A DNA stretch of 64,000 bases from a virus. The translations under genes were made by a program, and so were the position numbers. Positions 14,455-35,546 of the stretch are shown here, piece after piece (positions within the stretch are counted from its first letter, which is position 1; every line of letters starts with the position of its first letter). The notes below the pieces were generated by a model. That model did not search any database. It was not told the origin of the DNA and saw only the letters and a program-made list of their open reading frames with translations. The stretch covers positions 1 to 64,000 of IMG/VR virus record IMGVR_UViG_3300031992_000092; one strand, 5' to 3'.

Positions 14455-14492
14455 AAATAGGGCATCTTACTTTTTGTAAAATGCCCTAAATT
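14455..14492 (-). terminator. terminator hairpin (TAGGGCAT / ATGCCCTA) downstream of the giant receptor-binding gene
   Basis: 8-bp inverted repeat at 14457-14464 and 14482-14489 in an AT-rich context. Confidence 0.4.
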
Positions 14493-14495
14493 TTA

Positions 14496-17400
14496 TTAAT
14501 TTTGTTCTGGAATATAGAAGTAACCTTTATCTGTATTATTATTAACAGAGCCATCTTTACGATAAGCAATATAAATAGTATGCGGGATTCCTTCCAAATT
14601 CTCAAATTTTGCTTCTTTATAATTCATATTAGAATTACCATAAGTATTATAATTATAATTACTAGTAGTAGGTTGAGCATCTATTTTCATAATTAAATAG
14701 TCATAATTGGATTCTCCATATGAACAATATTTAATGATAAATGTATCATATCCATCAATATTAATCATACAAGTATCAGTAGTATTATGTTGATTTGTAT
14801 GTTTACTACTATAATATACTGTATGACCATCTACTTGAGTTCCACTATTAGCTCATTCATCATTATTAAGGTCTATAATATATTCTTGTTGAATTAATAT
14901 TACTCTTAATATCTTTGTAGCAGTTATACTATTATTATAAATACTAGTAGCTGTAATAATTAAAGTATCTCCATCAGAAGCATTTACTAATTTAACTAAA
15001 CCATTAGTATCAATAATAGCGTTACCTTCAATAGACCAAGTTACTCCACGATATTGCGGGTCAACATCAATACTATCATCTGGGTCTATATAGACAGGAG
15101 TTAATTGAGCAACTCTATCATAAACATCTTGTTTATAACAATTGATAGTTTCAATATTGGAATCTAATCTTATAGATACTAATTCTTTATCAGAGCCATC
15201 TTTAAAAGCGCTTAAAACATTTTTTCATTGATAAGCTGCTTTATATGTTGGGAATAAGCTTAATGGAATATAAATAGAGGTTACACCAGTAGAAGAAAGA
15301 TATGTATTAGTATCTGAATTAAAGTTTTTAAATACTCCACGAGCATAAATTGTTCTAAGATTTGTCGCATATCTAAATATTTCTGATGTAGAATTAACTG
15401 CTGAAAAATCTCAACCAGAAATATCTATTGTATTTAATTTATCACAATAATAAAATAATCCATATAAATCTGTGACTGTTGAGAATGTTCATTTAGACAT
15501 ATCGAGTTCAGTAATTGCTCTATCATATCAAAACATTTGTCTAATAGTAGTAAGATATGGAGTATGCATTTCTCCAAAATGAATACTTGTTAAACTAGGA
15601 TTGTTTGCAAACATAGCTTGCATTGTAGTAACATTTGTTACATCCAATAGATCAAAGTCAAAAGTTTTAATTCTTGTTTCATTAAAAGCATGACTTAAAC
15701 TAGTAATTTGTGAGGTTTCACTATTAATAATATCAAAAGAGCCAATCTGATAACGACCACTTAAAGTAATATAAGTTCCACTAAAATTATTAAATGTAAT
15801 ATTTAATGTACCAGCGCTAATATCATTCATAGTAGAAATAATGGTACTAATTCTACCGCAATCACTACAATTAATAAATTCTGTATTGGTAATTTTACTA
15901 TCATAACGAAACATGTTAGATACATTTGCGGAAGATGGTATATGTGGAATAATAACACTCGTTAAATTTGAACAATTTGCCATTGAATATTGTAAATTAT
16001 TAATTTTATCAACAGATAATTTTGTAGCATCAAGAATTGTCATTTTACCTTCATAGAAAGCATAATTAAAATTACAGTCTGCTTGTTCTCGCATATTTCA
16101 TTTTGAAGTATCTAAAATAGTTAAATAAGGACACATATGGAAACAATATGTATAATTAGTTACATTTGAAAAATCCATATTAATATCTTTAAGATTATGA
16201 ATTCCAGTTCCCGCATAAGCATAATTTAATGAATTAGGTTTATTTCTTTCATGAATAATAATTTCTCCATTGTTATTTTCTACTCAATTAACCATATTAA
16301 TATTTTTAATTCTAATAGCACTTCTAATAAATTCATTAAAATTATTATTAATAGTACCTTCAACAATTAAAGTAATAAAACTATTACTATTATTAGCTCC
16401 ATTACAAATTCATCTAATTAAACTATTTCCACCTGTTCAACCATTACATTCAGAAAAATAAATATTTTGAAGAGCAGAACAACCTTTTAAACAATCAGTG
16501 GCATAGCCACTATCATAATCATAAAGTTGCTTAGCATTCCTAAATTCAATTGTGTCAAGAGTAATACAATTTTCAAACATATGAGTCATATGTAAATAAT
16601 AAGCTCGATTAGCAACTACTAAATTTGGAAATTCTATATAATCAATAGACGTACATTCTGCAAACATATAATCATAATAAATATCTGTTCCTTTATTAAT
16701 ATTCATATTATAATTTTCAGGGAAAATAATCTTTTCAAGTAAACCACATTGATAAAACATATATCTTGAATCTTGAATTTTAGTAAAATTAGAATAACCA
16801 ATATCTACAGTTACTAAATTAACACATCCAGAAAACATATATTGAGTATTATTTACATTTCCAACATTTCAAGTAGTCATATTTATTTCTGTAACAAATA
16901 CTTCCATATTATTAGCTATAGTTCCAGAATCTTCCATAAATTTAATTTTAGTTATGGCTCTACAATTTTGAAACATGCAAGACATATTAGTTATAGGAGA
17001 AGTGTCAGCATCATTTGTGGTTGTTGTTAATCTAAATCAATCAATATAATCTAATTCATAACAATTTTGGAATCAACCTTGCATACTAGTAATTCCAATA
17101 AATTTAGAATATTTTAAATTAATAGATTTTAAAGCTCAACATCCAGTAAATAAATATTGAGCACCAGAACTACTTAATTCAACAAAATTTACACTACTTA
17201 AAGTTAAATTTGTTAAAGAATGACAATTAATAAACATTCTGCTAATATTAGTAGCTCTACATGGATTAGTAAATAAATAATTAATATTTAAAGTTTCAAG
17301 AGCATAACAATTTCCAAACATATATTCTAGACTTCTACCACCAACTCATGGGCTAGAATTATTATTTTGTCCAACTCTTGTAAATGAAACATTGTGTAAG

Positions 17401-20400
17401 TCTAAAGATTTTAAAGCTCTACAATGATTAAACATACTTTGACAATACATTACATTAGAAAATAATCAGCCATTATCTCCTTGATGTGTATTAATTTCTT
17501 CAAGAGCATAACAATTTTGTAACATACAGGTTGTACTATAAGCGCCAATCATATTGAAATGTTGATTTAAAGTTTTTAAAGCATAACAATGTTGAAACAT
17601 GTATTGGAAATTGGTACATTTTTGAGAAATAAAACTATCAGGAAAAGTTAATTCTTCAAGAGCATGGCATCCTTCAAACATCCCGTCAACTCTTTGAAGA
17701 TTTGCTCCTCCAAAGGTTTCTGGAATTCTAATTGATTGAAGAGCATAACATCATTGAAACATTCTTTCTGCACTAGTATTATTTATCATTGTAAAAGTAT
17801 CTGGAAGATATAATTCTTCAAGAGACTCACAATAACAAAACATATACGTAGCATTATCTCCACTTCATAAAGAAGTATTAAAATTAGGAATCAAGAGATG
17901 CTGTAATGATTTACAATTATAAAACATTTGATAAAAATCAGAACATTTAATAGTATTAAAACTTGTTAAATCTAACTCTTGTAAAGATTGACAATCATAA
18001 AACATTTCATACATTGTAGTAACATTTTCTGTTGAAAAATTACTAAAATCTAAAGTTTCAAGTTTAGTACATGCATAAAACATTTCAGAAAAAGTAGTTA
18101 CTAAATCTGTATTTAATGGAGTTAAATCAAAAGTTACTAAAGAAGAACAATAACAAAACATATTAGCACAATTAGTTAAACTGTGTCAATATTCCATACC
18201 ACTAATATCTAAAGTAGTTAAATTAATACAATCATAAAATAAATTAGATACATTTTTAATACTTTGTCCTTGAGCCCCTCATGTAGACATATCAATAGTA
18301 GTACCTCTATATCCTCTAAATAAATTAGCAATACTAGTACAAGTATTAATATTTCACTCTTCTAGATGAAGATCAACACTACTACCACAATAAGTTCCGC
18401 CTATTGATTTTCCTGCTAAATAGAAAGTATTATCTCTATAAATAACTCTTTGTAATGCTGAGCATCCTCAAAATTGAGCCTGAATATTTTTAACATGTTC
18501 AGTCCAAAAACTAGAAAGATTAATAGTTCGAATAGTATTAGCATTTAAAAACATTACTGCTCAATTAATAGAAGTAGTTGTTTCTTGAATATTTCATTGA
18601 GACAAATCTACACTAGTTCCCTTATAGCCACTAAACATTGCTACAAAACTTGTTTGCTGTGAAACATCTCAATGACCAATATTTAAAGGAATTTTAATAT
18701 TATAAAACATTTGCCCAACTGCTGTATAATATGTATATCTCATACTTCCATTAGTACCAGTATCAATTCATCTTGTAGAATAGTTTTCATTACTTCAATA
18801 ATCAATTGAATTAGCCTTCATTATAAATGAATTTGTTTCAAAAGTTTTAAGTTTAGAACAATTATAAAACATAGCTTCAAAATTTACAACTTTAGAAGTA
18901 TTAAATGTTTGAATTTTTAAAGTAATTAAATTAGTACATTCAGCAAACATTTCTGCCATACTTGTTCCTTGAGAAGTATCTCAATTAGAAAATATTAATT
19001 CCGTACCTTTATAACCATAAAACATTCTAATAAAATATTTCATTAAAGAGGTATTAAAAAGAGTCAAATCATGAATTTGTCCTATACTTCCATTGAACAT
19101 GTCTCTAACATTTACACTAGAATGGAACTTTCATTCATTTGTTATATACAAATCCTGTAAATTAGAGGTTCCATAAAACATTTCTGACATATTGGTACAA
19201 AATTCAATATTAAAGTCTGAAAGAGTAATTGTAATTGCCTTACAGTTATAAAACATTTGTGACATATTAATACAAGATTCGGTATTAAAATCTAAAAGAG
19301 TAACTGTAGTTGCTTTACATTCTCTAAACATCTGCGACATATTGGTACAAACTTCTGTATTAAAATTTGAAAGTGCGATTGTAGTTAATACAACATTTGT
19401 ATTATAAAACATTTGATACATTGTTGTTACATGAGAAACATCTCAAGTAGAAATATTAATTTCTGGAAGAAAACATCCACCAAACATATAAGTCATATCT
19501 GTAACTGAAGAAGTATCCCAAGTATTAAATAAAATTCAAGGAGCATGTACATCTGCAAAAGTATTAATCATATTCTGTACAGAAGAAATATCTCAAGTAG
19601 ATAAATCTAATCCATTAGTAAAAGTAGACAGCCTAAACATAGCTCTGAAAGAAGTAATATTAGAAACATTTCAATTTGCAACGTTTATATTTGTAAAAGT
19701 TGAACGATACAACATTGCTCTTAAATTAGTAATATTACTAAAATCTAAATTTTCAGCTTCTAATGTTCCAATAGTAGAATCATAAAAGAAACTAAAATCA
19801 CTATCTCAACTAAGAATATTTGTTAAACTAGTAATATCTCAATCTGTAATATTAATTAAATTTGCAGTACATCCTCTAAAAATAAATTGCATATTAGTAC
19901 AATTACTCATATCTCAGGTTCTTAAATCTAATTCAAGACTAGATGTTCCCATTTCTCTAAACATACCACTAGCATTTAAAACTTCACTAGTATCAAGAAT
20001 ATCTAATCCTTCAATAGACTGCAAACCTTTTAATTTATAAAACATATTCATACTATTAGCATTTAAAATAATAGGTGCTGCAACTTCAAAAGTAATAGTA
20101 ATTGTTCCAGTATCATTATCTCAATTAGCTACTACTGGAGAACCTTGAGAACCAATAGCAATACCAGATTTTTGAATACCATTTTCAAATATTATATGTT
20201 TAATTTTAGTATCTTCAAAATTACCATCTGTAACATTACTTCCATTTGCCATACGTTTAATAGTATAAGAAAATTCACCACCAGAAATTAATCTAGAATT
20301 ATATTTTTCTGGAAGAAGCGGAAAATCATAATATGTTTCTACTTTAATAGGAATATCTTCATTTCAAACAGTATACATATTTTGAACACCAGTATACATA

Positions 20401-23400
20401 TCTTTAGGAAATTGCATTGGATATAAAACTATATTGTAATCTAAGTAAGTAGAAGAGACATAGAAAAACGCTCTATCCTCATTTGAATCAACACTACCAT
20501 CCTTACGATAAAGTAAAGTAATAGTATGCGGATTATCATCATAAATTTCATATACAACTGTAGTATATGTCGTACTTGGTTTTCCATAAGTATGATATTC
20601 ACAATTAGAAGTTGATAATCCAGAAGTTTGATCAAGTTTACTAACAATTAAATAATCATAATTTGATTCTCCATTAGAACGAACTCTAATAGAAAATCTT
20701 GAATAACCTTGTATAGTTAAATAACAATAAGCATTTCCATTAGCAATATGATAGTTAGAATTACTTTTATAAATTTGAGAACCATTTATAGCATTATCAC
20801 CATCTTCAATCCATTGGTCATTTAAATCAATAGATCAAGAAGCATCAGATAGGTGTTTAATAGAATATCCTTCTATTTCTGCATTTCTAGCAGTATCATA
20901 AAATTGTCCTATATCCATTTGCTGCATAGCTAAACAATTATATAAACCATTTTCTTTTTCAGTATAATTAAATAACGTTCTATGTTTGCGGAAATCGAGG
21001 TATGTCATACTTTCACAACCAGAAAAAATTTCTCGCATATCCCGCAAATAATTAGAACATAATAATACTATATTAGTTTCAATAGTTTTACAATTCATCA
21101 TCATTTGATAAGCTGAAACGACGGTATTAAAAATAATTTCAGGATAGCGCTCTTGTTTAATTTCTATTAAATTATAACAATTCTTAAACATTTTATCAGC
21201 ATTTTTAATATACATAAAAGGAAATACTTTAGTAACTAAATCATAAGTAGGAGCTGCACCTGTAGATTTTGTTCCTTTTGGTCAAATAATTTTTTCAAGT
21301 TCATAACAATTTTCAAACATTGATGACATATTACCAATATTTTCAGATGTTAAACCAAGATTTCCATTATTATTATATGGTAATCCGGTAGCTTGAGCTA
21401 AATTATGATAAGTTTGGAACATCCAAGTACTTAAATCAATTTCTTGTAATTTTCTACAATCTTTAAATATTCTAACAAATCAATATTTTTGACTATTACT
21501 AGTATTTTCAGAAGGAGAATATTCAGTTGTAGTACCTCTTCAATCACCAAATTTTAGATTAACTAAAACTAAATTTTCAAGATTATAACAACCATCAAAA
21601 GTTCCTTCAAATTCTTGAGTTGTATTATAATTAGTAATATCTATAGGTCTATCATTTGGAAATTTAATACTTGTAATTTTATGACAGTTATAGAAAGTTT
21701 CTTTCAATGAAGTTAATTGAATATCATAACCGCCATATTGATGCCAACTCCTATTACCTCCAGTAATTCAATTATAACCAGCATTTGGATTTGTTTTAGG
21801 AATAAATTTAGAAAAATCCATTTCCATTTCTAAATTTTTACAATTATAGAAAGTTTGACTTAAATTTCATAAAACCATATTTTGAGAACCATTACTTGAT
21901 TTATCAAATTGACCATTAGTAGTAATACTCTTTAAGTTAGTAATATCAATTAATGATTCACAATTATAAAACATTTGTTTAAATTGATTATTAGAATGTC
22001 TATCAACATAATAAGTTCAACCACCACTTGGGGTATAATATCTCCTAAATGCTAAATTAATTTTTTCAGGTAGGATAATATGTTTAACATTTATACATTC
22101 TTTAAACATTCCTTCATAACAAGGACCATTAAAAACATTTGAATATTTTAAATTAATTTCTTCTAAAGATTTACAATTATAAAATAAATAAGAATAATCG
22201 TATAAATTTGTAAAAAAGAAATATTTTAAATCTAAACTTTGTAAAGATTCACAATTATAAAAACATCTACCTACTAATTCAGTTTTTCTTCAATAAGCAC
22301 TAAAACCAAGAGATTGAGCATACTGTCCATGTAAATCTGTAATTGTAATTAAGGATTTACAATTATAAAAAATTCTATCAAAATTACAATATAAATAACA
22401 ATTAGACATATCAAGTGCGGGAAGAGATTCACAATTTTCAAACATACTAGCAGCTTTTACAAGACGTCCATGAAATTCCATTTTAACAAAATCTAAATTA
22501 ATTAAAGATTTACAATTACAGAACATATAAGAAACATCTGTGACACCTCTTGTTCTTCATCTATCAAAAATAATAGATACTAAAGATTCACAGTTTAAAA
22601 ACATTTGGTTTGTAGAATATAATCACGGACTTTCAACATCTCCCATATCCAAAGATTGGAGATTAATACAGTCTTTAAACATTTTCTTAATATCTCTAGC
22701 CATATGCCAATTAAAATTAGATAAATCTAATTGAGTTGCCAAACAACCCTCAAATAAATTATTAAAATAAATATTTTCTTTATTAAATTGTGCGGTCAAT
22801 TGCTCATAAATCACATCTGGCAACCAAGCAAAAATATAATCTTTCTTCCTTGGGAATATAATTGAAGAAATATCAATTTCTCTTAAATTATTACATCCAG
22901 TAAACATATATGACATATCTTGAACATTAATTGTATTAAAATTAGATAAATCTGCAAAAAGTAAGGAAGCACAATTATAAAACATATAAGACATATCTAT
23001 AACATTATTTGTATCAAAATCTTTAAAATCAATTAAACTTAAAGATTCACAATTACTAAATAAATGTGTCATATCTGTTACTTTAGAAGTATCTATATTT
23101 TCAGGAAGTATAAGTTCTTTAAGATTTTTACATCCATTGAACATATATTCCATATCTATAACGTTAGAAAAATTAAAATGAGATAAATCAATATAATCAA
23201 ATAATTCACAATTATTAAACATATAACTTGTATCAGTTAATGTTTGTAATTCTAAATTAGATAAATCTACAGTAATAAGCGAAAAACATCCGTCAAACAA
23301 ATGAGAAATATTTGTAATATTTTCCCATTGAATCTTATTGAAATTGTTTATGCGTCGTAATTCCCGCATATCATAAAAAGTATATTCTGCATTATCTCTA

Positions 23401-26270
23401 ATTACAAAATTTTCAGCTCTGGTTTGAATAATAATTTTTTTAGTGTCACTATTATAATAAATGTATGGCCCAACATATTCTATATCATTAATAGTAGTTA
23501 TATATTGAGTACCATGTGGACTAACAATTCTTGTTCTAAAGTCTATACTTTTAATTTCTTGTAAAGAAACACCTTTAGTTGCAGAATAATTTTCTATCAT
23601 ATTCCGCAATGCCATCCCTGAATAAAATATATTATTATCAAAGCCATATGTTCTTTCTAGCAGCTCTTGGGTTACAGCTCTTTCTCTAATATATTTTCCA
23701 GGCCCATCAATTAAACCAGTAACATTAATATTAAAATTAGGAATAATACTTTCTTTAGTAGTATCATATTTTGATAAAATAACTTCGTTATCATTGTTAA
23801 GAGGAAGCTTATATCAAGGTTCATCCGTTGTTAATTGTTCATAACCATCTGTCTTTTCATAACTTTTATTAATTATAACAACATTTGCTGTTGGGATATA
23901 ATTTTTTAAACATTTTCTTAAAGTAGAATTATAAGATTTTGTTGCTCTATTAATAGTTTTCATTCTTCCTCAATCAACATCTGAGAAATTAATAGAACGT
24001 AAATCTGAACAACCTTTAAACATAGTATCTAAACCATAGATATAATATCAATCATAATATTTCTCATCATATCCTCTATGTGTTTTTCTATAATTAGTTA
24101 TATCTTCAAGATATATTTCATCACAAGGATCTTGAAAAGGAATTAATTCTTCTCTTGTAACAACAGGATTCATTTTAAAATTAGTAATATCAGTTAATCT
24201 CTCATCATCATTAAACATATATGCATAATTACAACAATAACTAGTATTAATTTTTTCAAAAGAAAAATCTTCAAGATAAATCATTCCAGAGAACATACCA
24301 GAACCATCTGCTGGAATATAAAATTCATTTTCTGGTGTTGCTACAATTAATGTTTTAGTATCATGGTCATAATCTCATGTTAAACTATTAGAATAAACTT
24401 TTTTACTATATTCATCTACTCTAACAACCAAACTATTAGGAAGCGGGAATAATACATTCGTTCTTCATTCTATATGTTTTATTACTTTTCCAGCAAATTG
24501 TTTACTAAAATTTTGACCTAAGAAATTATGCATAGAAGGATATTCATAATAAGGCTCTGGTTTGACTATACAATCTTCTCTAATATATCTACCTATTTGA
24601 TGAAGATTTAATTGATAAGTTCTAATACCAGTATTTTGTTCTATCATATAATATGGTAAAGCTAATCCAATATCTTTTAAATATCCATTTCTATTTTGGT
24701 CAAGACCTAATAAACTAGAAGCAGCATCTTTATTCATTCCTGCATCAACTGCTAATTTAAATAAATCTTGCATATAAGCTTGTACGTATTTGTCTTGAAT
24801 ATAATCACTATATGGAAGATTTACTGCTGGAGTATATTGACTATTCATATTAGTAAACATACCCTCTTGTACCATATTACCAGTAGTTAAATCCATTACT
24901 TCTTGAGTAACTACTTCCGTATATGACATTCTTCAATCAATACGAAGTCCAGCTTCTACACTATTTAATAAATCATATCCTGGCACTCCACTAATATTAT
25001 ATCCCATAAAGGCACTACTAGAAGTCATTGTATTAACTTCTGTATAAGTAGTAATACTAGGTTTAATTCCTTCAACTGTTTGAAAATCTTGTCGTGGACT
25101 ATAAGCATCATAATGTGCAATTTGTCATCCATTTACACTTAACATAGTTCTAGAACCTGTTAAAATTTCTTGTAAATTTCAACAATTATGAAAAGGAGAA
25201 TTTACATGCAATGTTTCTTTACCAGAATAGAAGAAATTAATTCAATTAGTTCAATCAATTTTCTTTAATTGGTAACATTCAGAAAACATTCCTGAAATAT
25301 TATTAATTGAAAAAACTGGACTATCAAAAGTAAATTCTTCAAGAGAAATACAAAAATGAAACATAAAACTTACATCTTTAAGAGATGGAACTTTTCAAAA
25401 TAAATTTCTAGGATTTGTTTTTAAACTATAACAATGAGAAAACATGTTTTTCATTGAAACCAAATTTGGAGCAAATATAGGTTCAATATTAACAGTAGTT
25501 AAATTAGGACAATATGCAAATGTTTCTTGCATATATGTAACTTTACTGATATCAATACCCTGAAGATTTGCTTCTACGAGATTTGGACATTCAGAAAACA
25601 TTTGAGTCATATTACTAGAACGTAATACTTTATCTCCATAAAATCTAAAATTAACAAATCCACATTGAGAAAACATTCCAATCATTTCACACTCATGATA
25701 AAAAGTTGGAAGTTTAACCTCAACTAAACAAGAACAATTTTTAAACATTCAATTTAAAATTCTAACATTGGAAGCGTCTCAAGAGGTCAAGTCAATTGTA
25801 TTAATACTTAAACAACCTTGAAATCAACCCTGAAAACTTTTAACCAATGAAGTATCTAAATTACCTATATTAAAGATAAGTCATAATTCACTCATACCAG
25901 AAAACATATTGGTCATATCTTCTGGAACTACAACTTTTCCATTAAATACAATATTTTTAATTTCACTATTATAAGCAGACCATGGATTAGTAAGATATTC
26001 TTCTGATAGGTAGGTAACTTTATCAGGATCACCAATTACTAATGTCCCATGGTCTGTAATAGCCCAAGGACAATCACCATTATATCCAGAATAAAGAATT
26101 TCTCCACCTCGAATATATTTTTCAAGGTCAGACATTTCTTTTCCTGGAAGGTCATCAATAGCAGAAGAAAATTCGTAAGGCATATAGGTTTCATCTCGCC
26201 CATTCTTCTCACGAATAGCATCTGCAATATCCGTTAAAACAGATTTTTTAATAAATACTTCTTCTGCCAT
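14496..26270 (-). CDS. giant receptor-binding/adhesin protein with DUF285/BspA-like leucine-rich repeats (about 3.9 k codons if a single gene)
   Basis: All 15 track ORF pieces between 26270 and 14496 are in the same frame. Junctions checked at 19421, 21215, 22526 and 20400-20520 are TGA codons that fit the repeat (W-x-VS-x-VT-x-M-x-x-MF). The repeat MFxxCxxLxxLDLSNFNTxxVTxMSxMF recurs dozens of times. The N-terminus MAEEVFIKKSVLTDIADAIREKNG is shared with the two upstream receptor-binding genes. In-frame TAA/TAG between the checked points is not excluded. Confidence 0.45.
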
Positions 26271-26282
26271 TTTATCTCCTTT

Positions 26283-29200
26283 TTAATTTGGGTAAATTAC
26301 TCTATAAGTATCTGCTACATTTGCGGGAATATCGTATGTAATTTCACCAGTTGTTTGACTTTCATATCTAATATCAGGACTGGCCGCACTAGCTCTTTTA
26401 TTAATACTAAATTCCCTATTAGCATAAAAATACATTTCTACATTATCTCCCATAATAATTTTATCTAATAAATATCCACCATCTTTACCACTACTAGCAG
26501 ATAAAAAATAAGTTGTTGTGGGAGCGAAACCTTGATTTAATTCAATTTCTAATCCAGATAAATCAAGAGTTTTAATACATTCACATCCTGTTAAAGCATA
26601 ACTAGCATTAACTGTAATAGTAGGTCTATAAGAACCTTGATAAACTTCAACAGAATCTTTTAATTTAAGAGGTAATAATTTAAAATAATTTTCTTCTCCA
26701 TTTGGACCAACTTGGTCTAATCCTAATCTTCTACAATTATAAAACATTTGTTCCATATTATTTAATTCTAATGGCTCCATATTTTGCGGGAAATCAACCC
26801 TTCTAAGATTAATACAGTTAGCAAACATATAAGCCATATTTTTAATAAGAGTAGGATTCAATTCTCAAGTAGAAATATCTACACTATATAAACTAGAACA
26901 ATATCTAAACATTTGAGCACAAGTAGTTAATGCTCCTACTGCTCATTGCGGGAAAGCAAGATTTTCTAAACTTGAACAATTTAAAAAAGCTCCTTGTAAG
27001 TTAATAAAAACAAAAGATGAAGATGTTTCAGGTTGATTAAAAATATGTAAATTAGTACAACCAGAAAACATTTCTTGTCCAATAAATGCTTGTCTAGGAG
27101 CTTGATTAAAAAATGTAATCTCATTTAACATTGTACATTTTTCAAGAATATTTCTAATATTCGTACAACTATATAGATTTAATGGCCGCAAATCAATTTC
27201 TTCAAGATAAGTACATCCTGAAAACATATAAGACATATTAACCACATTCTTTGTATTAAAAGTAGATAAATCAATTTGAGGCAATGTTTTACAATTCTGA
27301 AACATATAACTCATATCAGTGACCCGCACAGTAGTAATATCATTAAATTCTATTTCAATTAATCCTGTAAATGATGCAAATAACTTTGCACTATTGGGAG
27401 CAAAGAAAATTAATCTATTTGGAGTAAATACACTAAGTTCTCCACTTTCTATATCAAATGCAGCATAAGCTCCTGCATTATTATAATAATCTCCTACAGC
27501 TACATAGAAATCTAAATCAAATAAATCTTCGTCCATATTAGCATCTGTAGCATAAAAAATAATTTTTCTTACTTGACTATCTACTGTAGCAGAAGTAGTT
27601 TTAGTATTGCTCATATCATCATTAATAAAGTTTTTAATTCTTTTATTAAAGTTCTCTCCATTAGTTAAACTACCACAACCATAATATACGTCTCCACCAT
27701 CTGGAACTATCGTACCTATAATATAAATATCCTCTGCTGTTATAACTTCTTCAAGACTTGCAGAATACATATTAACTGAGAATTTAATAGATTTTTCATT
27801 TTGAAAATAAGCAATATCATAACCTTGTGGAATAACCAATGTTCTAATACTACCACAATTTGTTAACATATCAGTAGCATTAATTGAGCTATTTGGTAAA
27901 CCAGATGTTGAACTACCATTAAGAATTAAATTACTAAAATCAACTTCTTTTAATCTATAACAATTTTGTAAAAATCCTGTAAAATTAGTTACACTATATG
28001 TACTAAAAGGTAAAACAAATTCTGTAAATTGAACACAATTATTAAACATATTTGACATATTTTTTACTCTAGAAGTTGTTTCAAAAGAATCAAAGAATGT
28101 CATATTCTCTCATTTTAAACTAGTACATCCTTGAAACATACTAGCCATATTTGTAACATTATCCATATCAAAATTAAATAAATCTATTCCAGTTAAATTA
28201 CTACAATTTTGGAACATACCACTCATATTTGTTACATTTGAAGTATTCCAATAGGTGAGATTTAATTGATTAGAACCTTTTCAATTTGCAAAAAAACTAG
28301 CTAAAGAAGTGCGGGCAGAGACATCTCAATAAGTTGTATCTATTTCCGCAGGACAATTTCTTCAAAAATTGCCAAATGGAACATCTTTAGTAATAACTCA
28401 TCCAGCACCAGTTTCTACTTTTTCTAGAGAAGTACATCCATCAAAAAATGCTTCTAAAGAAATTGTTACACCTGATAAGTTTAATTTTGATAAATTTATA
28501 TTTTTTAAAGAAGAACAATTTGCAAAAACAAATCGAGCAAAACATAAAACAGAAGTTGTTTCTCAATTACTGCAATCAAGTTCTTCTAATTTTTTACAAT
28601 TATAAAAAGCATAATTTAATACAGATAATTTTTTAAGATTAGAAAAATTTTGGTATATATGAATTAAATTTTGACATTCATTAAAAGTATAGTGAAAAGT
28701 TGTTAGATTTCTTCCATCTCCAATTGAAGTTAAATCTACTTCAACTAATAAAGAACAATTATTAAACATTGATTGAAGAGATTCTACTGATTGCATATTA
28801 GATGGAAACTCAATAGCTCTTAATTGAGAACAAGAATTAAAAGCTGAATCAAAATATTTAACATTAGAAAAATCATTTTGAGAAAAATCTATTGCTGTTA
28901 AATTTGTACAATTTCTAAATAAACCTCTCATATCTATTACATTAGAAGTATTAATATTTTCAAAACCTAAAACTAATCAAAGAGAATCTAGTCCTCCAAA
29001 TAAACCCATAATAGAAGTTTGTACTTCTATTGGTTCATCAATAATAATTAACCTAATATATTGTCTATAATTATATCAATAAGACCAATATAAAGTTTCT
29101 GTAATATCTTTCTTTTGAGCCACATTTCAACGACTATAATTAGAACCACCATTAATTCAAATATTACTAGTATTTGGTTCAGGTAATTCTCCACCATGAA

Positions 29201-29843
29201 TAAAAAGAACACCTTTTCTAGAAATTTCTCATCTACATGTGCCAATAGTACCAGAATATAAAGGTTCAGTTTCTTTAATAAAAGATGATAAAAATACATC
29301 TGTATCAATTAAATCTATTGCGGGAGCCATCTCAGAAGGAGTATAAGTATCTTCAATTCCTTCTAATTTATATCTAATAGCATTTGCAATATCAAATAAG
29401 TCTTGCTCTTTTACAAGAACAAGACTTTCAGGTTTACTATTTTCAACTACTGTATAAGCATAAAAATTTTGATTAGTTGTTATATCAGTAGTATAATCAA
29501 AAACTAAAGTATGCGCTCCTTGCGGGACTTCAATAGTTCCCTCTTGTAAACTTGAAATATTACCATTTCCAGCTTTATAAGAAATAATCTTTCCATAAAC
29601 ATTAAGAAAAGCTATTCCTCCTAAAGTAGAAGAATTTTGGAAACCATAATATAATGTTTTTCCAACTTGAGTAGTAATATCTGCAAAATAATAATTTCAT
29701 AAAGAAGAATTTTGAGTGGTACCAGCAGCATAATTAGTACCACTTCATTCTCCAGATTTAACGAGGTAAATAGCTCCAGAGACTATAGGAGCATCCTTTA
29801 AAATATTTATGTGTTTTGCATAAGAATCTCCGCTACCAGCCAT
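26283..29843 (-). CDS. receptor-binding protein 2, DUF285/BspA-like LRR repeats (~1186 aa)
   Basis: Start ATG (rc 29841-43) after AAAGGAGG RBS. All track pieces are in one frame. N-terminal ...LFDIANAIRYKLEG...LYSGTIGTC is shared with the other receptor-binding genes. C-terminus ...NVADTYRVIYPN*. Confidence 0.55.
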
Positions 29844-29853
29844 TTAACCTCCT

Positions 29854-32800
29854 TTAATTATATTGAATTGTATAAGTATCAGCTATATTTGGTGGAATAG
29901 CATTAAACTCTTCATTATTAGTATTAACATAAGTAATTAATGATGTGCTTGGCTCTCTAGCTGTAAAGTTCTTATTACCAACAAAATAAGCACCAATTAA
30001 ATTACCAGTAATAATTGTATCAAGAGCATATCCACCTTGAGCACCAGTTTCAGCAGTTAAGAAATCTGTTGTATCTGGTAATGCATTCGTGTTATTTCTA
30101 TAAAGACCCATCTTAGAGAATTTATAAATATATTCTCTACCATCTGAAACTTCAGCCAAATAAATAATACAATATACGGTAGTACGATTACCACTGTTAA
30201 AATTAACAAGATATTCATAAGATTGTTCTGAAGCCATATTATTAAAATTAACACTACTAACAATAGAATCTGAAATACCACCTTGATAATTAGATGCACT
30301 TCCCGCAATATAATATCTAGCATTTCCATTATATCCACTAGGAGTATTAAAAGCTAATGAAAAAGTATAATTTGTATTAGCAATAACAGAGAGTGGTATA
30401 ACAATTTTTTCATATCCGCCACGTCCTGTTAACTTCATGGTATTTATATCATTAACATTATCATACTCATTATTAAAATTAGTATTTGCATAATTATCAA
30501 TATTATAACGATTTCAATTATTAATATTCTTTTGATTTGCAGTTAATAAATTAGTATTATCTAATGTTTCAGTAGAAATAATATTTAATTTACTTAAGTC
30601 TAATTCTTTAATTCCTTTACAACCAGCAAGAACACCTTTAGCATTAATTCTTGTAGTTGAATTACCAGAAATAACATTTTGTAGTAGGAATCCTGGTAAT
30701 GTAAATGCACTTGGAATAAAACTGTATTCTTCATTTACTAATGTTCTGGTAGTCCCAAGTTTCTCACAATTTTGGAACATATAAGAAATATCAGTAGGAA
30801 TTAAAGTAGGCATATCAATTGGGAATTTAATAGAATAAAGATTTCTGCAATTTTGGAACAATCTTGGTAATTTCTTTAATACATCATTATCAAATTCTCA
30901 ATCTTCAATATCTATTGTTTCAAGATTAGTACAATCAGCAAAAATATAAGATAATGAACTTAATCCTGTAACATTTCAATTATTTAAATCTAAGCTTGTT
31001 AATGAACTGCATTGATAAAATGCTCCATCTAAATTAGAAAAATTAAATAAACCATTTGTTGCTGGTTGATTAAAAGTAGATAAACTTGTACATCCAACAA
31101 ATAATTCTTTAGCATTCAAAGGATTTTGTCCAACTTGATTAAAGAAAGTTAATGTTTCAAGTTGATTATCATTCATAAACATTGTTTCAATATTCGCAAG
31201 AGCATTTGTTTCAAAATAAGTTAAATCAATACTCTTTAAGGATACACAATTATTAAAACAATTCTTAAATGATTGATTCTTAGCTGTATTAAATAAAGTA
31301 AAATCAAATGATTCCATTGAACGACATTCTTGGAAAGCACTTTCAAAAGTAGTAACTGAATAAGTGTTAATATAGGCAAAGTTAATTTGTTCCAATGCCC
31401 GCATTCCTCTAAATAAGCTTTCACAATTCTTATTAAATAAAATAAATCGTTCATTTGTTACTATTGTCATAGTAGCTGTTTCTTCATCTCACTTAGCATA
31501 AGCTCCAGCTCTATTATAGTAACATCCAATCCCATACCAACTACTATCATTTTCAAAGAATTCTTCATTTTGATCTCCAGTAGCAAGTTGGAAATTAATA
31601 ATTTTAATATTAGAATCCATTTGACTATAGCTTGTAGAACTATAAGCGATACCAGAAGCGAGATATTTAAGATAACCATTAACTTCTCTACCAGTAGAAA
31701 GAGCTCCACAACCATAATATGTTTTTAATCCAGTATAAATACCTCAATCCATATCATAAATTTGTTCTGGTAAAATGTCTATACTAGCATTAGCTTCATA
31801 CATATAAATTGGGAAGCATGGTTGATATCAAGTATAAATATCTGTTAAAGTATATAAATTAGTTTCTACTTTAACTGGTATAAATAAATTTGAATCATAA
31901 GAATTACCAACATATAATTCTCTTAAATTTGAACAATTCTTCAACATATTTTGAGCGTTAATAGAATGAGCTTTTGCAGTTCCATCGTCATTATCTGCTC
32001 CATGTAATATTCAAGTTGTTCAATCAATACTTTTTATTTGATAACAACCTTGTAACATTTTTTGATAATTAGTTACATGATAAGTACTAAAAGGAAAATG
32101 AAACTCGTTAAATAAAATACAATTTTCAAACATTGATTCAACATTAGTAACATTTCTTGTACTATCAAAATCATAAAAGAAAGTAATATCTTCAAGTTTT
32201 AAATTTTTACAATTATAAAACATATAAGATAAATCTGTACATTTAACAGGCTCAAAACTAAAAATACTAACACCTGTTAAATTAGTACAATTTCTAAATA
32301 ACGACTTCATATTTAAAGCATTTGAAGTATCTCAAAGAGTAAAATCTAATATTTGATTACCTTTCCAATCTTGGAAAAATGCTTCAAAACTTTGTAATGC
32401 TGAAACATCTCATTGTCTTGTATTTAAATAAGCAGCACAATTAGCAAACATTTGTTGAACATTTGCATTAGCATTAAATACTCAACCATTATTTGTTTTA
32501 ATTTCTCCAAGAGCAGTACAACCAGAAAAAATTTGATTTAATGTAGTAGCTCCTGAAATATCAAAACCAGATAAATCTAAAACAGTTAAACAAACACAAT
32601 TTTGAAATGTTTGTTGTAAATTTGTTAAAGCATTGGTAGTAATTCATTTAGAACAATCAAGATTTGATAATTTTGTACAATTTCTAAAAGCATATCTTAA
32701 ATTTTGTAATTTAGATAATCTTTTAAATCTAGTAGTAATACTTCCAAGTGCGGGACATCCATCAAAAGTACATTCCATATTAACAATATTTCTTCCTTCA

Positions 32801-33507
32801 TCCAAAAAAGAAATATCAATTTTATCTAATAATACACAGGCTGCAAAAGCATATTGTAAATTCTGAACATCATATCCACAATGATAATCAACATAATTAA
32901 TATCTGGAAACTTAATTTCCATTATTTGTGAGCAACCATTAAAGATATAAGACATATCTATAATATTTGTAAAATCATTTACAGAAAAATCAATTCCCGC
33001 AAGTCCTTTACAATTTTGAAACATAAAACTAATATTGCTAGTTTTAGTTAAATTTAAATAGTTCATACTATTTATTAATCAAAGTTTATCAAGTCCCGCA
33101 AAGAAATAAGACATATCTGCTCCTGCAATAACAGGACCTTCAAAACTTACTAATTTAATAAAACTTCTATAATCATACCAAGGAGAGTTTGTTTTTCCAG
33201 TATCCCGCACAAAATCTTTTCCATTTTCACATTTCCCTCGACTTATATCAGGCAGGACTCCCGCATATAAAAACAAAACTCCCTTAGTAGAAATTTCTCA
33301 AGAACAAGTTCCAAAAGTACCAGAATATAAAGGCGTTTTATCATGAAGAAAAGAGGTGACGAAAGTATTAGTCTGAATTGAACGAATAGCGTCAGCCATT
33401 TCTCCAACTTTATAATTTTTAGAATAATCTCCTAATTTATTTCTAATAGCATTACCCATATCTGTTAGATATTGTTTGCTAATAATCACCCTTTTCTCTT
33501 CACTCAT
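29854..33507 (-). CDS. receptor-binding protein 1, DUF285/BspA-like LRR repeats (~1217 aa)
   Basis: Start overlaps the tail-fibre stop (TAATG). All 7 track pieces are in one frame. N-terminus MSEEKRVIISKQYLTDMGNAIRNKLGD...LYSGTFGTCSW. C-terminus ...NIADTYTIQYN*. Confidence 0.55.
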
Positions 33508-35546
33508 TAGAACTCCATTCCATCTGCATATTCATAATCTGGAATATAAAAAGTGACAGTTTCACCATTAATAGTAATACTTCCCAATTCAATTCCACTC
33601 TCATAAACTGAAGTTGCAGATACCATATCCTTATTGACGGAAACTCGCCCATCTCCTGTAATAATTAAATTATCTCCAATTTTGATACCACCAATTACAT
33701 CTGCTGTTGCTATTGGCATAGAACCAATAGTACCATCAGGATTAATAACAGTAGTACCAATAATATCATCAATCATACTATTAGTAGTTTCTTTTACATC
33801 AAGAACACCTGCTCCACTAATAGTAAAGCTATTTTCACTAGCAATTATACCACCTAAAACACTATTAGAAGCAGGATTCAAATGAACAGTATAACTACCA
33901 TCTTGTTCTAATTCTTGTCTAAAAGTAGAAGAAAGTGCGGGTAATGTTAAACTTCTATTTCTAACACTTTTCTCATGTCCGTATTGATCAAAAATAATAT
34001 AAGGGAAGATTAATTGACCACCAAGCATTAAATTAGCTGCATCTTGATATCCAGCAGCCGTCATAACACCAGAACCACTATCATGTGTAATGGTCATTCC
34101 TAAATCTTCATCATAAATAATTTTTAATCCACTATCTTCTAATATATTTAAAGCTAATACATTATTTTCAGTTAAATAAATAGGACTAATATCTGAATCT
34201 ACTCTTACACCACCTAATGCAGATTTAGTGGCTGCTGGTAATACATAAGCAGTTCTAACAGACAAAGTTCCTAAAGCATCTACAACAATTGTTCTACCAT
34301 CAACCATAACAGAACCAAGAGTTGTAGTAGATGCTATTTTAGTATTAGCGGAAATATGACCTTCATCATCTATTGTAATTGTATCATTATCAATTTTAAC
34401 TCCACCTAAACGATCATGAGTCGCCATTGTAATTGAAAAATCTGAAAAAGTAGTAGATAAAACTCCATTTTCATCTATTTGAAGAGTTTCACCATCAACT
34501 ATAATACCACCTAGAGTTGATTCTGTAGCCATAGGTAACTCATAGCTAAAAACACTACTAATAGTACCAGTAGCATCAATAGTAATAGTTTCATTATCTA
34601 CCATAACTCCACCTAAAGTATTATTAGATGCCATAGGTAATTCATATGAGCTATCTATTGTAGAAATAACTCCATTTTCAATAACAATAGAAGTATTATC
34701 AGGTCTAACTAAACCATAAGAAGAATCATCTGCAAATGGTACAGAAATTACTCCACGGTCATTAATTAAAATAGTTTGACCATCTGGAATAACTCCACCA
34801 AGAATTGATAAAGTAGCAATAGGTAATGTATAACTTTGCGGGAAATCAACAGACAAATAACCATCCTCATCAATTGTTACATTGTCCCCTGCCCGCACAA
34901 TACCTAAAGTATTATCTGTAGCAACGGGTAAAGCTAAATCTGTAAAATCGACATGGATAAAACCATATTCATCCATTTTAATAGATTCATTATCAATTCT
35001 TACACCACCTAAAACAGATGATGAGGCTCTTGGTAATTCATAAATAGTATCTGTAGCAGATAAGACACCATCTTGAGTAATTTGAAGATTTTCACCAACT
35101 TTAATTCCTCCTAAAGTATTAGCTGTAGCAGGATTTAAAGTATATTGTTTTGCGCTTAAAACTCCATTTTCTACAAAGATAGTAGTATTATCTGGTCTTG
35201 AAATACCTTTAGTATAAGCAGTAGCATCTCCAATAGAAGAAATATCTGGTGTAGTTCCACTTTCAGAATCTCCACCTTCTCCATTAGTAATATCTGAAAT
35301 TTCTTCATTAGTAGCAATAGTATCATTACCTGTACCACTGCCACCCCCACTACCACCAACTACTGTTAATACTCCTTGATTAACAGTAATTGTTTCATTA
35401 TCTGGCATTACTAGTCCCGCAACGGAAGCTGTAGCAAGTGCTAATTTAGCATCAATTAAACGCATATTTTCATTAAAGATACTAATATCAGCATCTTCAT
35501 TATAATCTGGTAATGTTAGTCCCAAATTGGGTGTATAAGTTGCCAT
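33507..35546 (-). CDS. tail fibre protein with repetitive beta-solenoid-like segments (679 aa)
   Basis: Continuous ORF with GGAGG RBS. N-terminus MATYTPNLGLTLPDYNEDADISIFNEN. Contains about 12 copies of a degenerate T-LGGV-VDNETITID--G-IS repeat. Confidence 0.65.
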   Translation of the reverse strand: MATYTPNLGLTLPDYNEDADISIFNENMRLIDAKLALATASVAGLVMPDNETITVNQGVLTVVGGSGGGSGTGNDTIATNEEISDITNGEGGDSESGTTPDISSIGDATAYTKGISRPDNTTIFVENGVLSAKQYTLNPATANTLGGIKVGENLQITQDGVLSATDTIYELPRASSSVLGGVRIDNESIKMDEYGFIHVDFTDLALPVATDNTLGIVRAGDNVTIDEDGYLSVDFPQSYTLPIATLSILGGVIPDGQTILINDRGVISVPFADDSSYGLVRPDNTSIVIENGVISTIDSSYELPMASNNTLGGVMVDNETITIDATGTISSVFSYELPMATESTLGGIIVDGETLQIDENGVLSTTFSDFSITMATHDRLGGVKIDNDTITIDDEGHISANTKIASTTTLGSVMVDGRTIVVDALGTLSVRTAYVLPAATKSALGGVRVDSDISPIYLTENNVLALNILEDSGLKIIYDEDLGMTITHDSGSGVMTAAGYQDAANLMLGGQLIFPYIIFDQYGHEKSVRNRSLTLPALSSTFRQELEQDGSYTVHLNPASNSVLGGIIASENSFTISGAGVLDVKETTNSMIDDIIGTTVINPDGTIGSMPIATADVIGGIKIGDNLIITGDGRVSVNKDMVSATSVYESGIELGSITINGETVTFYIPDYEYADGMEF

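What the first reader, a model, noticed from the sequence alone, without database searches (positions are those of the whole stretch)
14496..33507. Cassette of three tandem receptor-binding genes with shared N-terminal anchors and DUF285/BspA-type LRR bodies
Genes starting at 33507, 29843 and 26270 all begin with a related domain of about 120 aa (K-YLTD-NAIR-K-G ... LYSG--G-C-W-I---G-L). They then diverge into long arrays of the MFxxCxxLxxLDLSNFNT-NVT-MS-MF repeat (DUF285 / BspA-like leucine-rich repeat). Receptor-binding proteins 1 and 2 also share C-termini (NIADTYTIQYN / NVADTYRVIYPN). A conserved anchor with variable distal modules is the architecture of multi-receptor-binding-protein phages. 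Using surface-protein LRRs of the DUF285 family as phage receptor-binding domains does not appear to be described.
Basis: partly seen in the sequence, partly recalled or inferred. Interest (0 to 1): 0.7.

Follow-up and report, generated by a model that had tools for sequence, protein, structure and literature searches.

The report
Giant leucine-rich-repeat tail fibres, recoded phage
A gut-type phage that reads TGA as tryptophan in its late genes carries three huge tandem leucine-rich-repeat genes in its tail-fibre slot, each with a short helical N-terminal tag shared by thousands of phage tail-fibre-like proteins, so they are most likely virion adhesins of a structural kind no one has studied experimentally.

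Summary
Three tightly packed minus-strand genes lie between tail genes and the endolysin of a long-tailed phage: A (1,217 aa), B (1,186 aa) and C (3,924 aa). All three match Pfam DUF285 strongly, and B and C also match LRR_5.

- The exchangeable "anchor" is about 45–55 aa (two predicted helices), not 120 aa. The next ~70 aa is a β cap that belongs to the LRR body.
- In B the anchor starts at residue 139, after a unique extension.
- A and B are full-length paralogs (37% identity).

The anchor is a large family with no Pfam model: 11,386 cluster representatives, almost always N-terminal in the listed hits. It is fused to LRR_5/DUF285 (36 of 111 sampled), tail-collar, Gp10_C, Kelch, collagen/phosphatase and other bodies, and sits in the receptor-binding-protein slot of unrelated phages. 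A 92.6%-identical relative keeps the cassette but shows mosaic replacement patches in B and C, one starting at the anchor/body junction.

The tail-attached adhesin or receptor-binding role is well supported by inference but not demonstrated. The families are already catalogued, with unknown function.

The parts
29854..33507 (-). Gene A, 1,217 aa (code 4; 14 in-frame TGA). Layout: anchor, cap, LRR block 1, non-repeat insert (aa 533-692), LRR block 2, unique insert (aa ~977-1143), then a C-terminal tail shared with B.
33340..33507 (-). Anchor motif of A (aa 1-56): ...YLTDMGNAIRNKLG...Y..GEMADAIRSI
33124..33339 (-). Cap of A (aa 57-128): LYSGTFGTCSWEISTKGVLFL...SPWYDYRSFIKLVSF. By homology to the modelled C cap, it is predicted to form beta strands that run into the LRR.
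26283..29843 (-). Gene B, 1,186 aa (15 in-frame TGA); a paralog of A.
29430..29843 (-). B-specific N-terminal extension (aa 1-138). No Pfam match and no other copy in the window.
29262..29429 (-). Anchor motif of B (aa 139-194), internal to the protein.
28212..29303 (-). Mosaic or replacement patch in B (aa ~181-544: cap plus first LRR block). It is 38-78% aa identical to the relative L041, with dS of 0.2-0.7, while the flanks are 93-100% identical.
14496..26270 (-). Gene C, 3,924 aa (62 in-frame TGA, 11 TGG). Layout: anchor, cap, at least 74 LRR units in several blocks, four large non-repeat regions, a weak Ig-like stretch, and a duplicated beta module.
26109..26270 (-). Anchor motif of C (aa 1-54). 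Modelled as helices at aa 9-23 and 31-39, followed by a low-confidence linker.
23751..25373 (-). Mosaic patch in C (aa ~300-840). It is 58-87% aa identical to L041 with raised dS, while aa 1-300 are 93-100% identical.
20436..20834 (-). Internal copy of the ~130-aa all-beta module (…GESNYDYL…YRKDGSV…), C aa ~1813-1945.
14499..14885 (-). C-terminal copy of the same module (C aa ~3796-3924). It is also the C-terminal module of the unrelated protein P0172.
29857..30078 (-). C-terminal tail of A (aa 1144-1217), homologous to B's tail.
26286..26522 (-). C-terminal tail of B (aa 1108-1186), homologous to A's tail.
19173..19373 (.). 75-nt tandem duplication (2.7 copies, 81% matches), equal to recently duplicated 25-aa LRR units in C. 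A second array with a 78-nt period lies at 22902-23060.
33507..35546 (-). g679, a fibre-like protein with LGG-type repeats and no Trp. Its stop overlaps the start of A. It is one candidate docking partner.
35559..37802 (-). g748, a tail protein (phrog_32343, phrog_1887).
11032..12591 (-). Endolysin (GH25 + CHAP + peptidoglycan-binding domain; 17 in-frame TGA). It closes the late module downstream of C, g222 and g266.

Best explanation
A, B and C are late-expressed virion proteins of a TGA-recoded (code 4) long-tailed phage. They are giant fibre-like adhesins, most likely receptor-binding proteins.

Proposed mechanism: each protein docks on the distal tail or baseplate through a short N-terminal two-helix anchor motif (L-DIA-AIR-K-G..Y-P-EMA-AI). 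It then projects long BspA/DUF285-type leucine-rich-repeat solenoids, interrupted and capped by uncharacterised beta modules, which contact cell-surface ligands.

Three paralogs with different bodies give the particle several binding specificities. Recombination downstream of the conserved anchor and duplication of repeat units diversify them. Because the genes are full of in-frame TGA, they can only be made once TGA is read as Trp, that is, in the late phase.

Shown here: gene structure, genetic code, domain families, the anchor's modularity and N-terminal position, tail-module synteny here and in other phages, and the mosaic divergence.

Inferred: presence in the virion, docking through the anchor, and receptor binding.
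For: Genetic code:
- Code 4 doubles the long-ORF content.
- In ortholog alignments TGA is conserved 122 times, swaps with TGG 15 times, and never swaps with a Gly codon.
- Early genes (polymerase, NrdD-like) have 0 TGA and 20 TGG. Late genes are TGA-rich, and no gene ends in TGA. This matches the pattern of Borges et al..

Genomic context:
- Gene order is TMP (~2,970 aa), g1817, g588, g552, g748 (tail protein), g679 (fibre-like), A, B, C, g222, g266, endolysin.
- The gaps between A, B and C are 10-12 nt with ribosome-binding sites.

LRR identity: DUF285 and LRR_5 matches lie far above Pfam cut-offs.

Not exported bacterial proteins: no signal peptide, TM segment, lipobox or LPxTG.

The anchor is modular:
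- 11,386 representatives at E <= 1e-3 and 2,495 at E <= 1e-10. In the top 150 it sits almost always at residues 1-43, or in tandem.
- Bodies among 111 members: LRR_5 24, DUF285 12, plus Kelch, Collar, Gp10_C, Laminin_G_3 and PKD.
- Among the 25 PHROG families listed, every one with a functional label is tail fibre, tail collar, tail protein or virion structural protein.
- In 12 IMG/VR contigs the motif is at aa 12-29, followed by LRR_5, collagen plus metallophosphatase, tyrosine phosphatase or unknown bodies.

Receptor-binding-protein slot in other phages:
- P0019 follows TMP, a 169-aa and a 350-aa protein, and precedes the endolysin.
- P0023 lies directly before a CHAP/amidase endolysin.
- The L017 anchor-LRR_5 gene follows Dit and two further genes. 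The L015 anchor-LRR_5 gene follows a collagen-like tail fibre gene.
- A DUF285-like region lies inside the gene annotated 'tail protein I' of Klebsiella phage ST16-OXA48phi5.4, between a baseplate gene and a tail-collar fibre gene.

Structure: the model of C 1-129 (mean pLDDT 77) shows two helices, a low-confidence linker, then a beta cap and the first LRR strands.

Evolution:
- The relative L041 (92.6% nt identity) keeps A-B-C.
- Neighbouring tail genes are 95-97% aa identical with dN/dS 0.06-0.18.
- B is 85% identical (dN/dS 0.45) and C(1-880) 82% (dN/dS 0.32). Both have sharply bounded diverged patches with raised dS, and B's patch starts at the anchor/body junction.
Against: - There is no direct evidence (proteomics or imaging) that A, B or C are in the virion.
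- LRR solenoids are typically monomeric, whereas characterised receptor-binding proteins are mostly trimers. Oligomeric state could not be tested.
- No docking partner was identified. Neighbours of anchor genes in other phages show no detectable homology to this window's tail proteins.
- Gene A diverges no faster than the flanking tail genes.
- In Butyrivibrio phage Bo-Finn a DUF285 homolog lies outside the tail module, so DUF285 in a phage does not by itself mean tail fibre.
- The non-LRR modules have no family assignment, and the one modelled has low confidence (pLDDT 53) and no significant fold match.
- Bacterial BspA-type proteins are known adhesins for eukaryotic matrix and cells, so the ligand need not be the bacterial receptor.
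Confidence: 0.65

Rival explanations
1. A, B and C are attached to the virion through the anchor, but they are accessory adhesins for something other than the infection receptor. Candidates are mucus or host-animal matrix glycoproteins, or other surfaces in the gut or rumen. They would keep the phage where hosts are, as in Ig-like 'adherence to mucus' models, while another protein such as g679, g266 or a tail-tip protein acts as the true receptor-binding protein.
For: - The closest solved bodies are BspA-type proteins: a Firmicutes 'cell surface protein' (4gt6) and Treponema TpLRR (6mlx). From established knowledge, bacterial BspA-family proteins bind eukaryotic matrix and cells.
- The phage encodes further fibre-like proteins, g679 and g266.
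- Gene A evolves no faster than structural neighbours.
- The extreme length of C (3,924 aa) is unusual for a primary receptor-binding protein.
Against: - The same anchor is fused to classical tail-fibre, collar and Gp10_C bodies.
- In small prophages the anchor protein is the only candidate in the receptor-binding-protein slot.
- The mosaic replacement patches in B and C resemble host-range determinants.
Confidence: 0.17
2. A, B and C are late phage proteins that are not part of the virion. For example, they could be released at lysis or displayed on the infected or lysogenic cell, acting as decoys, in superinfection exclusion, or as colonisation factors (moron-type BspA surface proteins).
For: - DUF285/LRR genes occur outside tail modules in some phages: Butyrivibrio Bo-Finn and the L003 prophage, which has an extra LRR_5 gene after the endolysin.
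- Automatic annotation calls such proteins 'surface protein'.
Against: - There is no signal peptide, lipobox, TM segment or sortase motif.
- The genes are embedded in the tail operon with 10-12 nt gaps.
- They are densely TGA-recoded like the structural and lysis genes.
- The N-terminal anchor is shared with tail fibre and collar proteins.
Confidence: 0.1
3. The region is not phage at all, but chromosomal DNA of a code-4 Mollicute encoding DUF285 lipoprotein-like surface proteins.
For: - DUF285 was defined on Mycoplasma proteins.
- GC is about 27% and TGA is read as Trp.
Against: - The window is a contiguous phage module with tail, virion structural, tape-measure-like and endolysin genes.
- The endolysin has GH25, CHAP and peptidoglycan-binding domains, which imply a walled host.
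- The replication genes avoid TGA completely.
- Close relatives are in IMG/VR viral contigs.
- There are no lipoboxes.
Confidence: 0.02

Closest known systems
Multi-receptor-binding-protein phages with conserved N-terminal docking modules (for example CBA120 TSP1-4, G7C gp63.1/gp66, Klebsiella PhiK64-1; from my own knowledge). T5 lateral fibre pb1 has a ~40-residue N-terminal anchoring domain (PMC12750041).
   Same: - Several tandem fibre genes in the tail module.
- A short conserved N-terminal element followed by long variable bodies.
- Recombination that starts right after the anchor.
   Different: - The anchor here is an unrelated ~45-aa two-helix motif with no Pfam model and no solved structure.
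- The bodies are LRR solenoids rather than trimeric beta-helices or fibres.
- Docking hierarchy and oligomeric state are unknown.
Bacterial BspA-family / DUF285 LRR surface proteins (Tannerella BspA, Treponema LrrA/TpLRR, Mycoplasma DUF285 proteins; Pfam PF13306 and PF03382)
   Same: - The same repeat families, with scores far above the Pfam cut-offs.
- The closest solved structures are 4gt6 and 6mlx.
   Different: - No secretion or surface-anchoring signals.
- They carry a phage tail-fibre anchor, are encoded in a phage tail operon, and are TGA-recoded.
[quoted passage not shown]
   Same: - phrog_29123 has the same anchor (often doubled), cap and DUF285-like architecture. A matches it at 8e-22 and phrog_9915 at 1.2e-36.
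- 107 of 111 anchor proteins hit phrog_29123.
   Different: - Catalogued members are about 250-530 aa, whereas A, B and C are 1,186-3,924 aa with multiple LRR blocks and extra modules.
- All of these families are labelled 'unknown function'.
TGA-recoded (code 4) gut phages of Borges et al., for example the Agate and Jade clades (10.1101/2021.08.26.457843)
   Same: - Low GC.
- In-frame TGA confined to structural and lysis genes, with replication genes in standard code.
   Different: - Clade membership was not tested.
- No suppressor tRNA was found in the 64-kb window.
Klebsiella phage ST16-OXA48phi5.4 gp35 'tail protein I' (Peduoviridae)
   Same: A DUF285-like region lies inside a gene annotated as a baseplate/tail protein, next to a tail-collar fibre gene.
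   Different: - The gene is annotated 'tail protein I' rather than carrying the helical anchor.
- Identity is only 23%.
- It is a myovirus of a Gram-negative host and uses the standard code.

Membership tests
Pfam DUF285 (PF03382) | HMM score above the gathering threshold (25 bits) | tested here: met
   A scores 133.6, B 177.6 and C 538.6 bits.
Pfam LRR_5, BspA-type LRR (PF13306) | HMM score above the gathering threshold (27.7 bits) | tested here: met
   B scores 90.8 and C 148.5 bits. A has no LRR_5 hit at E <= 0.01, so this is met for B and C only.
Bacterial BspA-like surface adhesins | Export and surface attachment (signal peptide, lipobox, sortase motif or membrane anchor) | tested here: not met
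   No hydrophobic N-terminus, lipobox or LPxTG. The maximum Kyte-Doolittle score over a 19-residue window is <= 1.42. This was a simple motif and hydropathy test, not a dedicated predictor.
Phage receptor-binding protein / tail fibre | Encoded in the tail module, distal to the tape measure and baseplate genes and before the lysis genes | tested here: met
   Gene order. The same slot holds anchor proteins in L003, L005, L015 and L017.
Phage receptor-binding protein / tail fibre | N-terminal virion-attachment module shared with recognised tail fibre proteins | tested here: met
   The anchor profile finds proteins whose bodies match Collar, Gp10_C and PHROG tail fibre, tail collar and tail protein families.
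Phage receptor-binding protein / tail fibre | Physical presence in the virion and binding to a host receptor | not testable with these tools
   This needs proteomics, EM or adsorption assays.
Phage receptor-binding protein / tail fibre | Homotrimeric fibre or spike architecture | not tested
   Only monomer models were possible, and code-4 translations are rejected by the structure tool. LRR solenoids are usually monomeric (established knowledge).
Multi-receptor-binding-protein cassette (conserved anchor, variable distal modules) | Paralogous anchors with differing bodies, and exchange of bodies between relatives | tested here: met
   The anchors align at z = 17-48. The bodies differ, although A and B are 37%-identical paralogs. 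Replacement patches in B and C lie downstream of conserved anchors in the comparison with L041. No whole-gene swap was seen.
TGA-recoded (code 4) phages | In-frame TGA read as Trp in late genes, with standard-code-compatible early genes | tested here: met
TGA-recoded (code 4) phages | Phage-encoded TGA suppressor tRNA or other code-change module | tested here: inconclusive
   ARAGORN finds no tRNA in the 64-kb window. A near-identical relative sits on a 93-kb contig, so the rest of the genome is unseen.
phrog_29123 (anchor-LRR phage proteins, unknown function) | Significant HMM match | tested here: met
   A matches at 8e-22 in two stretches, the best being A 75-198 against profile positions 277-402.

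The most novel reading that the evidence does not exclude
Leucine-rich-repeat solenoids of the BspA/DUF285 type, plugged onto the tail by a near-universal ~45-aa two-helix anchor, would be a major overlooked class of phage receptor-binding proteins in phages of gut and rumen Firmicutes. They would be structurally unlike the trimeric beta-helix and fibre paradigm and possibly monomeric. In this recoded phage they have expanded into a three-gene array of up to 3,924 aa that may bind several ligands, possibly including non-bacterial (mucosal or eukaryotic) ones.
Probability: 0.3. Interest if true: 0.8.

Novelty: new variant of a known kind. Interest (0 to 1): 0.6.

Why it matters
Receptor-binding proteins set phage host range and are the main target for engineering phages. 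Almost all characterised ones are trimeric fibres or spikes.

If LRR solenoids carrying this helical anchor are genuine tail adhesins, three things follow:
- Thousands of "unknown function" proteins in gut and rumen phages gain a role.
- The anchor gives a simple sequence tag for finding receptor-binding proteins in uncultured Firmicutes phages.
- It also offers a natural plug-in point for swapping binding modules.

The locus also shows how annotation under the standard code shatters such genes in recoded phages, which hides them from surveys.

Tried and rejected
- **Internal cap copies.** I suspected the second half of the '120-aa domain' was a cap recurring at the start of every internal LRR block. 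An HMM of the three caps found no significant internal copies, so I dropped the idea. The cap is single-copy, but it belongs structurally with the LRR.
- **Close relatives in IMG/VR.** The g679 scan found none. An A-specific peptide pattern found none. The gene B scan found only distant DUF285 proteins in 16 contigs, some from giant viruses.
- **INPHARED megablast** with 24.5 kb of the tail module: no match.
- **Genome-contig scan** for the DIADAIREKNG pattern: two off-target hits only, one internal to an unrelated protein and one a GC-rich spurious frame. No host was identified.
- **PDB sequence search** with the anchor profile: noise only, best E = 0.5.
- **Pfam on nine non-LRR segments**: nothing except a sub-threshold Ig-like hit.
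- **Homolog searches for distal modules.** The A C-terminal region has only a 94%-identical fragment. The C module has one homolog, P0172.
- **Structure prediction** of code-4 translations was rejected by the tool. The model of the C module has low confidence (pLDDT 53) and no significant fold match; the top hits are generic beta-sandwich modules such as MAM, CUB and CBM. The BFVD search with the anchor model gave no hit at E <= 1e-3.
- **Docking partner.** blastp between this window's tail proteins and the neighbours of anchor genes in other phages found nothing, apart from the endolysin.
- **Mis-set frame.** The g1817 row came from a mis-set frame and should be ignored.
- **Code 25 (TGA = Gly)** was rejected because TGA swaps only with TGG, TTT, TAT or TTA.

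Full report
**1. What is at the coordinates**

Under table 11 the region 14496-33507 is a litter of about 25 short minus-strand ORFs. The window has about 27% GC. Translating with code 4 (TGA = Trp) doubles the amino acids in long ORFs, from 10,947 to 21,403. It also merges the fragments into three genes:
- A = 33507..29854, 1,217 aa
- B = 29843..26283, 1,186 aa
- C = 26270..14496, 3,924 aa

The genes are separated by 10-12 nt that carry AGGAG-type ribosome-binding sites, and the stop of the upstream gene overlaps the ATG of A.

TGA is Trp and not Gly. In ortholog alignments TGA is conserved 122 times and replaced by TGG 15 times. Otherwise it is replaced only by TTT, TAT or TTA. The invariant cap tryptophan is TGA in A and B but TGG in C. 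No gene ends in TGA.

**2. Context**

The window is a phage. Downstream of C lie two small genes and an endolysin with GH25, CHAP and peptidoglycan-binding domains. Upstream lie, in order:
- a fibre-like protein with no Trp (g679)
- a tail protein (g748; phrog_1887, phrog_32343)
- three more large structural genes
- a tape-measure-like gene of about 2,970 aa
- virion structural genes

The plus-strand early genes (a PolIII-alpha-like polymerase and NrdD) contain 20 TGG and no TGA, while the late genes are full of TGA. This is the pattern Borges et al. describe for TGA-recoded gut phages that infect standard-code hosts. The peptidoglycan-directed endolysin argues against a Mollicute host. ARAGORN finds no tRNA in the window.

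**3. The claimed features**

Pfam DUF285 matches are very strong (A 3.8e-39, B 9e-53, C 1.2e-164), and LRR_5 matches B and C. A repeat HMM built from the proteins finds 22, 20 and 74 units, with consensus LKNFNTSNVTNMSYMFYNCTSLEEID. The units are arranged in blocks separated by non-repeat inserts.

The N-terminal regions are homologous well beyond chance (z = 17-48). In B, however, the region starts at residue 139, behind a unique 138-aa extension.

A and B are colinear paralogs (A 4-976 = B 139-1100, 36.6% identity) that also share a ~75-aa C-terminal tail. They are diverged duplicates rather than one anchor on unrelated bodies. C shares the anchor, the cap and the repeat type.

**4. The anchor is shorter, and far more widespread, than proposed**

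A profile search with the ~125-aa region found close fragments of A. One of them (P0002) ends exactly at the first TGA, because public gene callers used code 11. The search also found many proteins that share only the first ~45 aa.

An exhaustive HMMER search with a 43-position profile of that motif found 11,386 cluster representatives at E <= 1e-3 and 2,495 at E <= 1e-10. In the top 150 the motif sits almost always at residues 1-43, often with a second copy at ~57-97.

Among 111 of these proteins the recognisable bodies are:
- LRR_5 (24) and DUF285 (12)
- Kelch propellers, DUF6273, tail Collar, Gp10_C, Laminin_G_3, PKD and Big_3

Among the 25 PHROG families listed, every one with a functional label is tail fibre, tail collar, tail protein or virion structural protein. 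107 of the 111 hit phrog_29123, a family of unknown function with an anchor-LRR architecture. A itself hits phrog_29123 and phrog_9915.

A degenerate DNA pattern for DIADAIREKNG found 12 IMG/VR contigs. In all of them the motif lies at aa 12-29 of its ORF. The bodies that follow are LRR_5 (L011, L015, L017), collagen plus metallophosphatase (shown for L006; L013 looks alike), a tyrosine phosphatase (shown for L012; L016 starts identically) or unknown.

The motif has no Pfam family and no relative among solved structures.

An AlphaFold model of C 1-129 (mean pLDDT 77) shows two helices (aa 9-23 and 31-39). A low-confidence linker follows. Then a well-predicted beta cap runs into the first LRR strands.

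My own idea that the cap recurs at each internal block was not supported.

**5. Is the anchor a tail-attachment device?**

Position supports it:
- P0019 follows tape measure, a 169-aa and a 350-aa protein, and precedes the endolysin in a small prophage.
- P0023 lies directly before a CHAP/amidase endolysin.
- The L017 anchor-LRR_5 gene follows Dit and two further genes.
- The L015 anchor-LRR_5 gene follows a collagen-like tail fibre gene.
- L003 and L007 share homologous TMP, Dit-like and Tal-like genes upstream of anchor genes with different bodies. L006, L013 and L015 share an upstream neighbour despite different bodies.

Independently, a DUF285-like region lies inside the 1,008-aa gene annotated 'tail protein I' of Klebsiella phage ST16-OXA48phi5.4.

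A, B and C lack signal peptides, lipoboxes, TM segments and sortase motifs. This argues against the bacterial-surface role implied by the name 'BspA family surface protein'.

Against over-generalising, the DUF285 homolog of Butyrivibrio phage Bo-Finn lies outside the tail module. I also found no homolog of the putative docking partners among this window's tail proteins.

**6. Comparative genomics of the cassette**

- A 93-kb IMG/VR contig carries gene C at 98.4% nt identity.
- Five short metagenome contigs keep the g679-to-A junction at 72-98% identity.
- A 29.7-kb contig (L041) is colinear at 92.6% identity and has the same A-B-C order. So there is no whole-gene swapping at this distance.

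Divergence is uneven, however. Tail genes and A are 95-97% aa identical, with dN/dS of 0.06-0.18. B is 85% identical (dN/dS 0.45) and C(1-880) is 82% (dN/dS 0.32).

The excess is confined to sharply bounded patches with raised dS: B aa ~181-544 and C aa ~300-840. The anchors and the remaining parts are 93-100% identical. That is the signature of recombinational replacement of body segments. In B the patch starts at the anchor/body junction.

Within C, tandem duplications of 75 and 78 nt show recent gain of repeat units.

**7. Distal modules**

None of the non-LRR parts has a Pfam family. C carries two copies of a ~130-aa all-beta module, one of them at the C-terminus. The same module ends an unrelated protein that has a Listeria-Bacteroides repeat. 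Its model has low confidence and no significant fold match. A carbohydrate-binding beta-sandwich is therefore only a guess. A's C-terminal region is an orphan.

**8. Comparison with what is known, and novelty**

Functionally the locus looks like a multi-receptor-binding-protein cassette with a conserved N-terminal dock. T5 pb1's ~40-residue anchoring domain is a useful analogue.

By sequence the bodies are members of DUF285 and LRR_5. As proteins they fail the defining export feature of bacterial BspA adhesins.

DUF285/BspA genes have been annotated in phage genomes before. Vibrio phage pir03 has a 19-kb DUF285 ORF, and DUF285 proteins are packaged in giant-virus AaV particles. Anchor-LRR families exist in PHROGs and UniProt. 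I found no paper that assigns them a tail-fibre or receptor-binding role.

I rate this a new variant of a known kind. The concept (a modular receptor-binding-protein cassette) is known. The anchor family, the LRR body as its most common cargo, and the giant recoded three-gene array are not described.

**9. Verdict**

The best explanation is tail-attached LRR adhesins or receptor-binding proteins, with confidence about 0.65. The main rival is that they are virion-attached adhesins for non-receptor ligands.

Noticed in passing
window 295..10980 (+) versus 11032..63786 (-): The genetic code is split by module. The plus-strand replication and nucleotide-metabolism genes (polymerase and NrdD-like) use only TGG for Trp (0 TGA, 20 TGG). 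The minus-strand structural and lysis genes use mostly in-frame TGA. No gene in the window ends in TGA, and no tRNA (suppressor) is found in the window.
   Followed up: partly
window 12968..13768 (-), g266: This gene is compositionally foreign: GC is 0.41 against about 0.27 for its neighbours. It is free of TGA, rich in Ala/Val/Thr, and has fibre-like repeats (phrog_38190). It sits between the LRR cassette and the endolysin and may be a recent acquisition from a standard-code, higher-GC phage. The 391-aa virion protein at 58613..59800 is similar (GC 0.385, no TGA).
   Followed up: partly
window 47179..56094 (-) and 41601..47054 (-): The tape-measure-like protein is extremely long (about 2,970 aa) and is followed by a 1,817-aa protein with no PHROG hit. 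This implies an unusually long tail and a large distal complex.
   Followed up: no
window 33507..35546 (-), g679: This 679-aa protein contains no tryptophan codon at all (neither TGG nor TGA). It is built of LGG-type repeats (phrog_9625) and has a weak head-fibre match (PF11133). It lies immediately upstream of gene A and overlaps its start.
   Followed up: partly
L006, L013, L012, L016 (IMG/VR contigs): In other phages the same N-terminal anchor is fused to enzymes. L006 has a collagen repeat plus a calcineurin-like metallophosphatase (L013 looks alike). L012 has a Y_phosphatase3 tyrosine-phosphatase-family domain (L016 starts identically). These could be tail-borne enzymes acting on phosphodiester-linked wall polymers.
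   Followed up: partly
L001 7761..9574 (ENA scaffold, high GC): A double-anchor DUF285-like gene (P0013) appears broken into several consecutive short ORFs. It lies next to a type I restriction-modification system and an rve-type transposase fragment, so it may be a decaying prophage remnant.
   Followed up: no
L034 (Klebsiella phage ST16-OXA48phi5.4, NC_049450.1 23679..26705): The gene annotated 'tail protein I' is 1,008 aa and contains a DUF285-like region. It lies directly before a tail-collar fibre gene.
   Followed up: partly
window 19173..19373 and 22902..23060: Tandem DNA duplications of 75 and 78 nt lie inside gene C and correspond to whole LRR units. They show ongoing expansion of the repeat array.
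   Followed up: partly
public protein databases (P0002, P0171 and similar): Public gene calls of this phage's relatives are truncated at every TGA. For example, a 69-aa 'hypothetical protein' equals the first 69 residues of gene A. These giant genes are therefore invisible as such in standard-code annotations.
   Followed up: yes
window 4720..7144 (+): An anaerobic ribonucleotide reductase (NrdD-like) is followed by an overlapping ORF that looks like its activase. This is consistent with an anaerobic (gut or rumen) host.
   Followed up: no
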